Of a stretch of DNA of 19,134 nucleotides, positions 12,001-15,000 are shown piece by piece. Location of the stretch: IMG/VR virus record IMGVR_UViG_2690316344_000004. One strand, 5' to 3'. How positions within the stretch are numbered: position 1 is the first letter of the stretch; the number at the start of each line of letters is the position of its first letter. The stretch is from a virus. Its lineage: Duplodnaviria > Heunggongvirae > Uroviricota > Caudoviricetes. The position numbers were made by a program.

Positions 12001-15000
12001 GAATTTATTTTGTACAAACCAATGGTTATGGCTTTTGGTATAGAGAAAAAAGTTATTGCTTTTTGACGTAAAAACTGCTTCAATTCCGGTAAGCTTCGCA
12101 AAGCTGTACCGCGAGGCGAATAGCAGACATGGACATTTGAAAGAGCCCGCTTTTTGCGGGTTTTTTTATGACTGAAAAACGGCACGGGGCGTTAAACGCG
12201 CTGGTGGTTGCTAATACCGGTCTTTCAACTTGCTGGCTTTTTCGACAAGAGTTATTGGTATGTCACGTTAACCGGAAAATGGAAAAAGGCATGCTAAAAC
12301 AGCAGGATATGACCGAAACCGCCAGAGTGGTGTTTAATGAATTAAGCGTCACCGAACCGGCGACCGCCGGGGAAATTGCGCAGAACACTTATCTTTCACG
12401 CGAACGCTGCCAGTTAATACTGACCCAGCTTGTTATGGCGGGTCTGGCAGATTATCAGTTCGGTTGTTACAGACGCCTTCCTCAGTGAAGGCTTTTTTAT
12501 TTGTGGTAATGGGCGGCTGGTGGGTGTTAGCGGCACCTGCCAGCCATCTGCTCATGCGTTGGGGTCACAAGCAAACCTCAGGCCCATCTGCTTTGCGCAA
12601 AAGCGGTATGAGCCTATCAGAGAAGTGCTTATTGATCTATGGCTAATACTGTAAAAATATCCAGTTGTGAGTTAATCAACGCTGATTGCCTGGAATTTAT
12701 CCAGACCTTACCGGAAAACTCTGTCGATCTGATAGTCACAGACCCGCCATACTTTAAAGTGAAGCCCGAGGGCTGGGATAACCAGTGGAAGGGCGACGAT
12801 GATTACCTGAAGTGGCTGGACCAGTGTCTGGCGCAGTTCTGGCGGGTGCTGAAACCTGCCGGAAGTCTTTACCTGTTCTGTGGCCATCGCCAGGCATCTG
12901 ACATTGAAATCATGATGCGTGAACGCTTCAATGTGCTGAACCATATTATCTGGGCGAAGCCGTCCGGACGCTGGAACGGGTGCAACAAGGAAAGCCTGCG
13001 GGCGTATTTTCCGGCCACAGAACGCATTCTGTTCGCGGAACATTATCAGGGGCCGTATCGTCCGAAAGATGATGGCGATGAGGCGAAGGGCAGGGCACTG
13101 AAACAGCATGTGATGGCCCCGCTGATTTCTTACTTTCGTGATGCGCGTGCTGCTCTTGGGATAACGGCAAAACAGATTGCAGATGCCACAGGAAAGAAAA
13201 ACATGGTGTCGCACTGGTTCAGTGCCAGTCAGTGGCAGCTACCGAACGAAAGCGATTATCTGAAATTACAGTCGCTGTTTGCCCGGGTGGCAGAAGAGAA
13301 ACATCAGCGGGGAGAACTGGAAAAGTCCCATTACCAACTGGTCAGCACATACAGTGAGCTGAACCGGCAGTATATGGAACTGCTGAGTGAATATAAGCAT
13401 CTGCGGCGGTATTTTGGCGTGACGGTGCAGGTGCCGTATACCGATGTGTGGACGCATAAACCGGTGCAGTTCTATCCCGGGAAACATCCGTGCGAAAAAC
13501 CGGCAGAAATGCTGCAGCAGATAATCAGCGCTAGCAGTCGTCCGGGTGACCTGATTGCAGATTTTTTCATGGGGTCGGGTTCGACAGTGAAAGCGGCACT
13601 GGCGCTCGGGCGTCGTGCAATTGGCGTTGAGCTGGAGACTGAACGTTTTGAGCAGACGGTTCGGGAAGTACAGGATTTAGTCAGCCAGAACGGATGATAT
13701 TGAAGAATTAATTACGCGTCGTTATTATGCGGCTCCCGGCCCTTTAGCTCAGTGGTGAGAGCGAGCGACTCATAATCGCCAGGTCGCTGGTTCAAATCCA
13801 GCAAGGGCCACCATCACATACCGCTATTAGCTCATCAGGAAAGAGCGCCAGCCTTCGAAGCTGGCTGCGCGGGGTTCAAGTCCCCGATGGCGGTCCATTA
13901 TCTGCATCATGCGTTGTTAGCTCAGCCGGACAGAGCAATTGCCTTCTAAGCAATCGGTCACTGGTTCGAATCCAGTACAACGCGCCACACTTATTTTCCC
14001 TGGCTCGCTTTTGCGGGCCTTTTTTTTAAATGTCTCACAATTCAGACGGTTGACAGTTGTCTGTTTTGCGGGGAGTTTGTTAAAAGAAACTGGCATGGTG
14101 AATCCCCCTGTGCGGAGGGGCAATCAGCGAGTAGGTATATGGGATAATCGCGGATTCAGGTGCTGGTACTGAATTCACCGGGAGGCACCCGGCACCATGC
14201 AATGGCACATAGCGCCACTCTCCAGCCCCTCTCCGGAGGGGCTTTCTTATGGACAAAAAAAGCCCGCGCTGGGAGACGCGGGCGGCAAGGAATAAACAAT
14301 AAAACGTGAAGTAATATTTCAGCTGGCGAATAATACCCCATAGTAATCACTCTGCGCAACTGCGCGGTCTTTTTCGAATTGCGGGCTGAAGTCTCCCTTC
14401 TGCCATTGTCCTGTAACTTCCGGACTTCAGCCCGCTCCTCATTTTACTCACAATATTATCCCGGCCGGGAGGATTCATGGCATTTAAACACTATGATGTT
14501 GTCAGGGCGGTATCGCCGTCAGACCTTGCTGATGCACTTGCTCAAAAAATTCGTGAAGGATGGCAACCATACGGCGGGCCGTTTTCTTCGTATACGGATG
14601 ATGGCGCAGCACTTATTCAGGCGATTGTCGCAGAAGGTGATGTGGTCGTCAGTGGTGCAACTGAGCCGGAGTGGTACTACGTCATCGTACTGGCCGGGCA
14701 GTCTAATGCCATGGCTTACGGTGAAGGGCTTCCGCTTCCGGATTCATACGATGCGCCCCATCCGCGCATTAAGCAACTGGCCCGTCGTAACACAGTGACT
14801 CCCGGTGGTGAAGTATGCGTATTTAACGACATCATTCCTGCTGACCATTGTCTGCATGATGTTCAGGATATGAGTACGCTGAATCATCCGAAGGCAGACC
14901 TGAGCAAAGGGCAGTACGGCTGTGTCGGCCAGGGCTTACATATTGCCAAAAAACTGCTTCCGTATATCCCGAATAACGCGGGGATCCTGCTGGTACCATG

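What the first reader, a model, noticed from the sequence alone, without database searches (positions are those of the whole stretch)
12063..13697. Late-operon entry: two terminators, a small HTH-like ORF and an orphan methyltransferase ahead of the tRNAs
Downstream of the putative Q gene are a strong terminator (12143..12167), a small ORF with no clear RBS whose C-terminal half is HTH-like, a second terminator (12475..12502), and then a beta-class amino-methyltransferase with no partner endonuclease. Placing an orphan methyltransferase under antitermination control suggests late-expressed DNA modification for protection of progeny DNA. Its target is unknown and it carries a long insertion between the catalytic motifs. 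I could not identify a convincing sigma70 promoter between the Q gene and the first terminator, so the late promoter may be unusual or my Q assignment may be wrong.
Basis: partly seen in the sequence, partly recalled or inferred. Interest (0 to 1): 0.45.

Follow-up and report, generated by a model that had tools for sequence, protein, structure and literature searches.

The report
Late-operon gate for M.EcoGII-type methylase
This is the start of the late operon of an E. coli lambda-like prophage, where terminators and a folded RNA leader precede a near-copy of M.EcoGII, the known enzyme that methylates every adenine; the gene module is already known, but the leader matches no described RNA family.

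Summary
The described features are all present. The 184-aa DUF1133 protein is a distant phage-21-type Q antiterminator. Its late promoter was missed because it overlaps the end of the Q gene: -35 TTGCTT, TG-n-TTCAAT, then TAAGCT. TAAGCT is identical to the sigma-dependent pause element of phage 21 pR'. Terminator 1 is a strong tR'. The real small gene is only 65 aa (12291-12488) and folds as a winged helix. [quoted passage not shown] So its target is not unknown, and the "insertion" is its target-recognition domain. The same cassette lies between Q and stx2 in many Stx2 phages, and between Q and the holin in Klebsiella, Pantoea and Salmonella prophages. One part appears new. The 135 nt before the methyltransferase ATG (12503-12641) form a highly conserved, covarying RNA structure. 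Its closing helix ends two bases before the start codon. It has no Rfam match. It accompanies this gene family with or without the small gene. Verdict: a known module with an apparently undescribed regulatory leader.

The parts
11512..12066 (+). Q-type late antiterminator gene (184 aa, DUF1133; distant member of the Q21 family)
   Evidence: Pfam DUF1133 E = 4e-105 and Phage_antitermQ 33.1 bits against a cut-off of 26. PHROG 753 'anti-termination protein Q-like' E = 6e-81. PDB Q21 6p18 E = 5e-4, aligned over residues 14-39 and 80-181. RefSeq start at 11512.
12056..12061 (+). Predicted pR' -35 hexamer TTGCTT, inside the last codons of Q
   Evidence: Best PWM promoter in the interval. A TTGnnn hexamer sits at the same spacing (17 nt) before TTnAAT in most of the 25 Q-ascertained sequences from other genera.
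12076..12084 (+). Predicted extended -10, TG-C-TTCAAT
   Evidence: TTnAAT followed 5 nt later by TAnGCT is present in 21 of 25 Q-ascertained sequences. A TG lies upstream in most. The hexamer is non-consensus, with T rather than A at -11.
12090..12095 (+). TAAGCT, predicted sigma-dependent pause element (SDPE) at about +1 to +6
   Evidence: Identical to the annotated SDPE TAAGCTG of phage 21 pR', in the same order: -35, -10, start site, SDPE, terminator. T, A and the final GCT are invariant in the 21 sequences that carry it.
12089..12167 (+). Predicted short pR' leader transcript (about 79 nt) ending at tR'
   Evidence: Inferred from the phage 21 start site, which lies one base before TAAGCT, and from the terminator. 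The stretch 12067-12175 folds at -37.6 kcal/mol, z = -3.8.
   Evidence: -18.2 kcal/mol, z = -5.4. 22 of 25 Q-ascertained sequences have a hairpin plus T-run 41-92 nt after the Q stop, with differing stem sequences. Stx2 phages keep the hairpin with different loops and stems. Homology to Stx2 phages begins inside it, at window 12156.
12168..12290 (+). Conserved untranslated spacer, read as the N-terminal 41 codons of the 106-aa ORF
   Evidence: The reading frame is not conserved. The nucleotide sequence is conserved across genera. The scan finds no promoter-like site here. Function unknown.
12291..12488 (+). 65-aa winged-helix protein gene
   Evidence: RefSeq CDS. PHROG 331, E = 2e-47, function unknown. 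TrmB 17.4 bits, below its cut-off of 25.6. AlphaFold pLDDT 89.9 with helix-helix-helix-beta-hairpin topology. Foldseek finds only generic winged-helix matches. 78-98% identical in Klebsiella, Pantoea, Salmonella and two Stx phages. Present directly upstream of the methyltransferase in 176 of 189 loci and in 46 of 73 diverse loci, down to 37% identity.
12475..12502 (+).
   Evidence: Listed by the terminator scan. Weak by energy. The stem is kept by compensatory changes, for example CG in 19 sequences and UA in 9 at one pair. Where the small gene is absent, the Q-linked tR' occupies this position immediately before the leader.
12503..12641 (+). Structured RNA leader of the methyltransferase gene. 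P1 12509-12555; P2 12563-12572 with 12627-12637; P4 12580-12583 with 12612-12615; P3 12590-12604. The ATG is at 12639.
   Evidence: Covariance model hit of 120 bits, E = 1e-24, the only hit in the window. One hit per methyltransferase locus, always ending at the ATG: 80 of 80 close loci and 68 of 80 diverse loci, with none in 27 Q-only loci. 93.7% of cells paired against 27-44% in slid controls, 15 pairs with changes on both sides, 0 of 500 shuffles as high. The single-sequence fold gives the same helices, -72 kcal/mol, z = -3.3. No Rfam match at E <= 10.
12639..13697 (+). Orphan beta-class N6-adenine methyltransferase, orthologue of M.EcoGII (352 aa)
   Evidence: 93% identity (326/349) to the published M.EcoGII sequence. 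PF01555 E = 3e-44. DPPY at residues 35-38, FxGxG near residue 310. Loci whose enzyme is 98% identical to M.EcoGII carry the same cassette and the same tRNAs.
13738..13987 (+). tRNA cluster: ileZ (CAT anticodon, annotated tRNA-Ile), argN (TCG), argO (TCT)
   Evidence: ARAGORN, Rfam, and the RefSeq and Stx-phage annotation.

Best explanation
The region is the entry to the late operon of a stx-less lambdoid prophage of E. coli. It has the same layout as the Q-to-stx2 segment of many Stx2 phages. A Q21-family antiterminator gene (DUF1133) ends in its own late promoter pR'. Transcripts start near 12089 and meet the pause element TAAGCT. In a lysogen they stop at tR' (12138-12167), leaving a 79-nt RNA. 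On induction, Q loads at the pause and makes RNA polymerase terminator-resistant. Polymerase then reads through tR' and the second hairpin (12475-12502) into three things in turn. First, a 65-aa winged-helix protein. Second, a 135-nt structured leader whose closing helix P2 ends two bases before the methyltransferase ATG. Third, an M.EcoGII orthologue that methylates adenine in any sequence context. Blanket m6A on replicating phage DNA would protect progeny from the many restriction systems blocked by adenine methylation. The two terminators and the leader would keep a host-toxic enzyme off during lysogeny and limit or time its translation. Shown here: homologies, gene order, hairpins, covariation, and co-occurrence. 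Inferred: the start site, Q action, late timing, non-specific activity of this allele, and a translational role for the leader.
For: The methyltransferase is 93% identical to M.EcoGII. M.EcoGII is non-specific, unexpressed in its lysogen and harmful when expressed constitutively (PMC5778455). A 2025 review groups it with Mu Mom as 'silent in lysogens and toxic'. Ancestral variants about 70% identical to this protein are also non-specific. Q assignment: and PMC8136144, which lists DUF1133 as Q by HHpred. Promoter and pause element: the composite TTGnnn, 17 nt, (TG)n TTnAAT, 5 nt, TAnGCT is in 21 of 25 Q-ascertained sequences from 52-85% identical loci. It keeps its position whether the stop codon lies inside it or 12-19 nt upstream. 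TAAGCT equals the annotated phage 21 pause element. Terminator after Q in 22 of 25 sequences, with differing stems. No promoter-like site between tR' and the methyltransferase. The cassette lies between Q and the holin or stx with three different Q families: PF06530, PF03589 and PF06323. Leader.
Against: There is no transcript, methylome or activity data for this locus. The proposed -10 (TTCAAT) has T, not A, at -11, in this window and in most relatives, so the start site is uncertain. No clear Q-binding direct repeat like that of phage 21 is visible in the window. Terminator 2 is weak by energy, and its U-run is lost in other genera, so it may be mainly part of the RNA structure. About 7% of close loci and about 37% of diverse loci lack the small gene. 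About 9% of diverse loci lack a recognisable leader. So neither element is indispensable. Helix P2 has fewer compensatory changes than P1. The covariation alignment A9 was fitted to the model.
Confidence: 0.8

Rival explanations
1. The methyltransferase is a site-specific orphan enzyme with an unknown motif, acting as an epigenetic regulator.
For: Databases name it 'site-specific DNA-methyltransferase'. The 23 differences from the published M.EcoGII sequence include some in the recognition domain.
Against: M.EcoGI (333 of 349 residues identical to M.EcoGII) and reconstructed ancestors about 70% identical to this protein are all non-specific. Several of the 23 differences look like machine-reading errors in the supplement text, since natural loci reach 98%.
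Confidence: 0.05
2. The enzyme's relevant substrate in vivo is RNA (rRNA, mRNA or the phage late transcript), and it tunes induction or translation rather than protecting DNA.
For: M.EcoGII methylates single-stranded RNA in vitro, converting over 32% of rA. Another Stx-prophage methyltransferase acts on 16S rRNA and alters induction (PMC10810198).
Against: That enzyme belongs to a different family (MT-A70, DPPW motif) and sits elsewhere in the phage. M.EcoGII's initial rate on DNA is about 90 times its rate on RNA (11.12 against 0.12).
Confidence: 0.1
3. The conserved 135-nt stretch works as DNA, as an operator or promoter bound by the winged-helix protein or by the methyltransferase's own HTH domain, not as an RNA structure.
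For: P1 is a near-perfect inverted repeat (GGCTGG...CCAGCC). Sequence conservation is unusually high. Many methyltransferases repress their own promoters (my own knowledge, not tested here).
Against: One-sided changes keep G-U pairs on the + strand; these would be A-C mismatches on the other strand: UA in 22 and UG in 23 at one pair, GC in 23 and GU in 23 at another. Four nested helices covary, not only the palindrome. Indels fall in the predicted loops. No promoter-like site is found. The element persists without the small gene.
Confidence: 0.12
4. The 65-aa winged-helix protein is the dedicated switch for the methyltransferase: a Com-like translational activator acting on the leader, or a C-protein-like transcription factor.
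For: It lies immediately upstream of the methyltransferase gene in lineages down to 37% identity. It is very conserved. By position it is co-transcribed late.
Against: It is missing from 13 of 189 close loci and 27 of 73 diverse loci, whose leaders are otherwise like those of loci that have it. M.EcoGII alone is active when cloned. It is not a zinc finger and has no similarity to Com or C proteins.
Confidence: 0.25
5. The DUF1133 protein is not the antiterminator, and the late promoter lies elsewhere.
For: Pfam files it as a domain of unknown function. The match to Q21 is weak. The -10 is non-consensus.
Against: It sits in the Q position after DUF968 and RusA. It passes the Phage_antitermQ cut-off. 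It is followed in 21 of 25 relatives by the phage 21 pause motif and in 22 of 25 by a terminator.
Confidence: 0.05

Closest known systems
M.EcoGII and M.EcoGI, non-specific adenine methyltransferases of E. coli O104:H4 prophages (Murray et al. 2018, PMC5778455)
   Same: 93% identity, the same length class (352 against 349 aa), the same beta-class order (DPPY, recognition domain, FxGxG), and no partner endonuclease. M.EcoGII-type loci carry the same small gene, leader and ileZ-argN-argO tRNAs.
   Different: This is an allele with a different C-terminal tail, linked here to a DUF1133 Q. The M.EcoGII papers read here did not turn up the terminators, the small gene or the leader in term searches.
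Phage 21 Q21-pR'-tR' antitermination cassette (Yin et al. 2019; annotated genome OL657228)
   Same: Distantly related Q (6p18, E = 5e-4). The order is -35, -10, start, pause element TAAGCT, then an intrinsic terminator within 100 nt. tRNA genes follow, as in phage 21.
   Different: Q is 184 aa rather than 162, and Pfam files it as DUF1133. The -35 lies inside the Q gene, 2 nt closer to the pause element. The -10 is TTCAAT with an upstream TG rather than the phage 21 hexamer. The phage 21 Q-binding repeats (ATTGAGCA, AATGAGCA) are not recognisable in the window. The sister clade shows AGTGAGCC and AAGTGC, which resemble them.
Q-to-stx2 segment of Stx2 phages (phiP27, Stx2a_WGPS2, Stx2_14040, ASU11, 1720a-02)
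   Same: 89-93% nucleotide identity from window 12156 onward (82% in Stx2c phages): terminator, 65-aa gene, hairpin, leader, methyltransferase, tRNAs.
   Different: There are no stx genes here. An STnc100-type sRNA occupies that position. The Q allele and the sequence upstream of the terminator differ.
Phage Mu com-mom (a toxic DNA-modification gene whose start is masked by an mRNA stem-loop and unmasked by the small Com protein; from my own knowledge, and grouped with M.EcoGII in PMC12707154)
   Same: The logic is similar: a late, toxic, broad anti-restriction DNA modification enzyme, a small protein gene directly upstream, and an mRNA structure next to the start codon.
   Different: There is no sequence or fold relationship. 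Com is a zinc finger, whereas this protein is a winged helix. Mom is not a methyltransferase. The leader here is far larger (four helices) and occurs without the small gene. This is an analogy only and was not tested.
StxS, the pR'-tR' short RNA of 933W/Sakai-type Stx phages (Sy et al. 2020, PMC7547250)
   Same: Both are predicted constitutive short transcripts ending at tR' as a by-product of antitermination control.
   Different: StxS comes from a 258-nt transcript linked to the 144-aa Q. The predicted RNA here is about 79 nt and linked to a different Q. No sequence comparison was made.

Membership tests
M.EcoGII family (beta-class non-specific N6-adenine DNA methyltransferases) | N6_N4_Mtase fold with motif order DPPY, then central recognition domain, then FxGxG | tested here: met
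   PF01555 E = 3e-44 over residues 29-340. DPPY at 35-38 and FMGSGS near 310.
M.EcoGII family (beta-class non-specific N6-adenine DNA methyltransferases) | Close full-length sequence identity to the characterised enzyme | tested here: met
   326/349 identical, 2 gaps, E = 0.
M.EcoGII family (beta-class non-specific N6-adenine DNA methyltransferases) | Methylates adenine in any sequence context | not testable with these tools
   Inferred from M.EcoGII, M.EcoGI and ancestral variants.
M.EcoGII family (beta-class non-specific N6-adenine DNA methyltransferases) | Orphan: no cognate restriction endonuclease adjacent | tested here: met
   The neighbours are Q, a winged-helix gene, tRNAs, esterases and lysis genes.
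M.EcoGII family (beta-class non-specific N6-adenine DNA methyltransferases) | Prophage-borne and silent in the lysogen | tested here: inconclusive
   Prophage context is shown. Silence is inferred from two terminators and the absence of a promoter-like site. No expression data.
Q21-type Q antitermination cassette | Q protein homologous to Q21 (Pfam PF06530) | tested here: met
   PF06530 33.1 bits against a cut-off of 26. 6p18 E = 5e-4. The homology is distant.
Q21-type Q antitermination cassette | Sigma-70 promoter directly after or overlapping the Q gene | tested here: inconclusive
   TTGCTT, 17 nt, TTCAAT with TG. It is conserved in position in relatives, but the -10 lacks A at -11, and the strict scan finds nothing.
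Q21-type Q antitermination cassette | -10-like sigma-dependent pause element in the initial transcribed region | tested here: met
   TAAGCT at 12090-12095, identical to the phage 21 pause element. TAnGCT is present in 21 of 25 relatives.
Q21-type Q antitermination cassette | Q-binding element: two 8-bp direct repeats between -35 and -10 | tested here: inconclusive
   No clear repeat in the window spacer TTTGACGTAAAAACTGC. Repeat-like AGTGAGCC and AAGTGC occur in the sister clade.
Q21-type Q antitermination cassette | Intrinsic terminator shortly downstream, before the late genes | tested here: met
Q21-type Q antitermination cassette | Q-dependent read-through | not testable with these tools
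   Needs in vitro transcription or reporter assays.
   Both are present in the window. The hairpin is conserved with compensatory changes. The U-run degenerates to UUUCUGCUG in Klebsiella, Pantoea and Salmonella.
TrmB family transcriptional regulators (PF01978), for the small gene | Score at or above the Pfam gathering cut-off | tested here: not met
   17.4 bits against 25.6. Only the general winged-helix fold is supported.
Any Rfam 15 family, for the methyltransferase leader | Covariance-model match | tested here: not met
   No match in 12500-12640 at E <= 10 or at gathering scores.
Mu com-mom-type translational gate | mRNA helix occluding the translation start of the modification gene | tested here: inconclusive
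   P2 (12563-12572 with 12627-12637) ends 2 nt before the AUG. Three of its pairs show compensatory changes. Occlusion of ribosome binding was not tested.
Mu com-mom-type translational gate | Com-like zinc-finger activator | tested here: not met
   The small protein is a winged helix with no similarity to Com.

The most novel reading that the evidence does not exclude
The 135-nt leader (12503-12641) is an undescribed class of cis-regulatory RNA dedicated to M.EcoGII-family genes. It would be a four-helix structure that masks the start codon region of a genome-wide adenine methylase. It would open only under a late-infection cue. Candidate cues are the winged-helix protein, the methyltransferase itself, RNase III cleavage of the long P1 hairpin, or a small ligand such as SAM or SAH. 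This would explain how temperate phages carry so toxic an enzyme.
Probability: 0.45. Interest if true: 0.6.

Novelty: new member of a known kind. Interest (0 to 1): 0.4.

Why it matters
M.EcoGII is a widely used laboratory enzyme in chromatin footprinting, MadID and RNA tools. Its natural regulation and biological role are still only assumed. This locus shows where the gene family lives: it is the first cargo behind the Q-dependent terminator, in the slot that holds stx2 in toxin phages. It is accompanied by a conserved winged-helix gene and a strongly conserved folded leader. That gives concrete, testable handles on two questions: how a phage keeps a host-toxic, genome-wide methylase silent, and when it releases it. 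It also extends the phage 21 Q, pR' and pause-element paradigm to the large DUF1133 family. Because part of the segment between Q and stx2 in many Stx2 phages consists of this cassette, its terminators and RNA structure lie in the path of toxin transcription.

Tried and rejected
(1) The Stx-prophage '16S rRNA methyltransferase' of Gong et al. 2023 is a different gene, of the MT-A70 family with a DPPW motif.
(2) The 106-aa ORF as the real gene: its N-terminal 41 codons are not kept in frame.
(3) An upstream ORF or leader peptide in the methyltransferase leader (ATG 12509, MGGWWVL..., tandem Trp codons): its length and frame vary from 3 to 45 codons, so it is not conserved coding sequence.
(4) TTGACG (12063-12068) as -35 with TAAGCT as -10: the spacer is 21 nt, and the pairing is not conserved.
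(5) Known RNA families: there is none for the methyltransferase leader. For the pR' leader, the best match is a sub-threshold isrK hit at 12093-12166 (19.8 bits against 50, E = 0.06), treated as chance.
(6) A promoter between tR' and the methyltransferase: the consensus scan finds none.
(7) Sequence search of the small protein against solved structures: nothing found. Foldseek returns only generic winged-helix domains, with best E = 1.7e-3.
(8) No solved structure of M.EcoGII exists. The best PDB relatives align only over the catalytic core.
(9) The first leader sample was gathered with a DNA pattern, which forces invariance in three segments. The covariation tests were therefore repeated on loci gathered by methyltransferase protein similarity.
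(10) Literature searches found no paper linking M.EcoGII to Q antitermination, Stx phages or a leader RNA. The library does not hold most subscription journals.
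Full report
WHAT THE WINDOW IS. The window is a lambdoid prophage of E. coli. The 3.1 kb around the finding is 99.3% identical to chromosomal prophages of several strains. Some part of it matches 3832 of 5426 complete E. coli genomes, and 620 genomes hold at least 80% of it. The gene order is DUF968, RusA, DUF1133 protein, small gene, methyltransferase, three tRNAs, esterase genes, holin, DUF1327 and lysozyme. 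The exact methyltransferase, small-protein and DUF1133 sequences are all in public databases.

CHECK OF THE OBSERVATION. Terminator 1 is a 13-pair hairpin (12138-12168) overlapping seven T at 12161-12167, at -18.2 kcal/mol and z = -5.4. Terminator 2 has the stem 12475-12492 followed by TTTTTTATTT. The scan lists it, but its energy is ordinary (z = -1.0). The 106-aa frame is real. However, an alignment with four Stx phages shows 1-nt and 10-nt indels and a missing ATG in its first third. RefSeq annotates only 12291-12488, which gives 65 aa. The methyltransferase is PF01555 (E = 3e-44) with DPPY before FxGxG. No endonuclease is nearby. The strict promoter scan finds nothing between the Q stop and terminator 1.

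THE Q GENE AND ITS PROMOTER. The 184-aa protein is Pfam DUF1133 (E = 4e-105). It also passes the Phage_antitermQ cut-off, at 33.1 against 26 bits. It matches PHROG 'Q-like' families and the solved Q21 protein 6p18 (E = 5e-4) over most of its length. A survey of Stx phages also lists DUF1133 as Q by HHpred (PMC8136144).

I fetched 27 loci encoding relatives from other species; 24 with a complete Q gene, 52-85% identical, were compared with the window, 25 sequences in all. Of these, 22 have a hairpin plus T-run 41-92 nt after the stop codon, and the stem sequences differ. Twenty-one carry the composite TTnAAT, 5 nt, TAnGCT. In most, a TTGnnn hexamer lies 17 nt upstream and a TG lies before TTnAAT. 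The composite keeps its internal spacing whether the Q stop codon lies inside it or 12-19 nt upstream. So the conservation is not a by-product of coding.

The annotated phage 21 genome gives the key to reading this. There, pR' is -35 TTGACA, the Q-binding repeats, -10, the start site, then the sigma-dependent pause element TAAGCTG, then the terminator, then tRNA genes. The window's TAAGCT (12090-12095) is therefore the pause element. TTGCTT (12056-12061) and TG-C-TTCAAT (12076-12084) are the likely promoter, and the start is near 12089. Three relatives (L007, L008, L011) instead have a canonical TTGACT, 18 nt, TATATT across the stop codon.

Two caveats apply. The -10 has T at -11. The Q-binding repeats are not evident in the window.

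THE METHYLTRANSFERASE. Paper searches led to M.EcoGII. Its sequence, taken from the supplement of PMC11551740, is 326/349 identical to the window protein. Natural loci in the viral collection reach 98% identity to the published sequence. The residue differences look like machine-reading errors.

M.EcoGII methylates adenine in any context in double-stranded and single-stranded DNA, and more weakly in RNA. It is not expressed in its lysogen and slows growth when expressed. M.EcoGI and reconstructed ancestors about 70% identical to the window protein are also non-specific. The 'long insertion' is the recognition domain: a four-helix bundle with an HTH, plus a charged linker. The authors named phage 1720a-02 as carrying a very similar enzyme. 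That phage is hit H9 of my DNA search.

WHERE THE CASSETTE SITS. Homology to Stx2 phages begins at window 12156, inside terminator 1. It runs through the small gene, the methyltransferase and the tRNAs. In those phages stx2AB follows.

In Klebsiella, Pantoea and Salmonella prophages, methyltransferases 75-78% identical lie between Q and the holin. Each has the small gene ending a constant 150 nt or so upstream. The Q proteins belong to three different Pfam families. The cassette is therefore a mobile unit that takes the first position behind whichever Q and tR' a phage has.

THE SMALL GENE. Its product is 78-98% identical across genera and Stx phages. The family is narrow: 361 clusters, and all named members among the best 120 are Enterobacterales. 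AlphaFold gives a confident winged helix with pLDDT 89.9. Foldseek finds only generic winged-helix domains. The TrmB label rests on a sub-threshold score.

It precedes the methyltransferase in 176 of 189 loci. In a more diverse, protein-ascertained set it does so in 46 of 73 loci, down to 37% identity. It is absent from several lineages, so it is a frequent but dispensable companion.

THE LEADER RNA. The 135 nt between terminator 2 and the ATG are more conserved across genera than the flanking coding DNA. They are not a conserved reading frame and match no Rfam family at E <= 10. Where the small gene is missing, the element follows the Q-linked terminator directly.

To avoid the bias of my first, pattern-based sample, I gathered 80 loci by methyltransferase protein similarity, at 61-92% identity. 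Their leaders show extensive compensatory change. In P1, for example, GGCUGGUGGGUG/CACCUGCCAGCC becomes GGCGUACAUGAUG/CAUCGUGCACGCC or GACUGUAAAGGUG/CACCCUUACAGUC. On the unfitted alignment, 95.8% of cells pair against 27-52% in slid controls. Nine pairs change on both sides, and no shuffle of 500 scores as high. Helix P2, which I added by hand, has three pairs with compensatory changes.

I then built a covariance model of 139 positions and 32 pairs. It hits once per methyltransferase locus, on the coding strand, ending at the ATG. The window hit is 12503-12641 at 120 bits. All 12 methyltransferase-bearing sequences in that search (the window and 11 loci) were hit, and none of the 27 Q-only loci was. 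In the diverse set there are 68 strong and 5 weak hits among 80 loci. In the close set, 80 of 80 loci are hit, across 467 kb.

On the model-fitted alignment, 93.7% of cells pair against 27-44% in controls. Fifteen pairs and 110 cells change on both sides, against 9-34 cells in controls. One-sided changes preserve G-U pairs on the + strand, which argues for RNA rather than a DNA palindrome. Folding the window sequence alone gives the same helices at -72 kcal/mol, z = -3.3.

The 3' strand of P2 ends two bases before the AUG. There is no Shine-Dalgarno sequence at normal spacing. A role in limiting or gating translation is the simplest reading, but it is inference.

MECHANISM AND COMPARISON. The locus works like the phage 21 or lambda late switch, with an M.EcoGII-type anti-restriction methylase as the first late product. 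The combination of a toxic modification gene, a small upstream gene and a start-masking RNA resembles Mu com-mom. A 2025 review already pairs Mom with M.EcoGII as silent and toxic. There is no homology between the two systems, and the small gene is dispensable here.

VERDICT. The 'unknown target' is in fact known, and the doubts about Q are resolved. The module is common and annotated in many genomes. The structured leader, and to a lesser degree the winged-helix partner and the phage-21-like pR' of DUF1133 Q proteins, are the parts not found in the literature I could search.

Noticed in passing
window 14064-14254 (+): Full-length match to the Rfam sRNA STnc100 (139 bits against a gathering score of 47). 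It lies between the tRNAs and the esterase genes, exactly where stx2AB sits in the related Stx2 phages. It is flanked by several terminator-like hairpins (14002-14019, 14224-14243, and 14283-14262 on the minus strand).
   Followed up: no
window 14391-14909 and 15605-16114; ORFs 14477-15754 and 15691-17544: A diverged tandem duplication with a period of about 1.2 kb and 79-88% identity. It gives two NanS-p-like sialate O-acetylesterase genes (DUF1737 + SASA). The first (425 aa) lacks the C-terminal DUF6645 part. The 99%-identical reference strain has only one such gene.
   Followed up: partly
window 12168-12290 (+): The 120-nt spacer between tR' and the 65-aa gene is strongly conserved at nucleotide level across genera (for example AGAGTTAT, TGTCACG). 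It is neither conserved coding sequence nor promoter-like. It might be a second RNA element or a binding site.
   Followed up: partly
loci L250, L252, L256, L257, L264 (upstream of methyltransferases 65-66% identical) and L253, L254, L255, L258, L274, L282: Some distant M.EcoGII relatives keep a diverged winged-helix gene. Their leader is either shortened to about 85 nt (weak covariance-model hits, E about 0.01) or not recognisable. The two accessory elements are therefore gained and lost independently.
   Followed up: partly
Stx phage loci L002-L005, L115 and L131, just upstream of their terminator: A conserved block, TGTTAAGAGTGGTyACTt.gaCAC..CTTAAA, precedes tR' in phages with PF06530-type Q. 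It is there even where other genes lie between Q and the terminator (phiP27, WGPS2). It replaces the DUF1133-linked leader of the window and may be the pause and leader region of that Q type.
   Followed up: no
window 12093-12166 (+): Sub-threshold Rfam match of the predicted pR' short transcript to the Salmonella Gifsy-1 Hfq-binding RNA isrK (19.8 bits, gathering score 50, E = 0.06), covering the full model length. Probably chance, but the coordinates coincide with the predicted start-to-terminator RNA.
   Followed up: no
window 1752-1803 (-), 9319-9493 (+), 3728-4481 (+), 7617-8923 (+): Other prophage cargo. DicF antisense RNA (76.7 bits). A hok/sok-type toxin-antitoxin locus (sok RNA 114.7 bits; the reference strain annotates hokD in this prophage). 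YdaS/YdaT-like genes in the cro/cII position. A NUDIX hydrolase and a HAD hydrolase pair among the early genes.
   Followed up: no
window 12632-12636 and 12563-12568: The invariant TGATC just before the methyltransferase ATG contains a Dam site (GATC). It is complementary to GAUCA near the 3' end of 16S rRNA (from my own knowledge of the 16S sequence). Its P2 partner, GGUCAC (GAUCAC in distant relatives), resembles the 16S segment GAUCAC. This may point to an anti-Shine-Dalgarno-like mimic.
   Followed up: no
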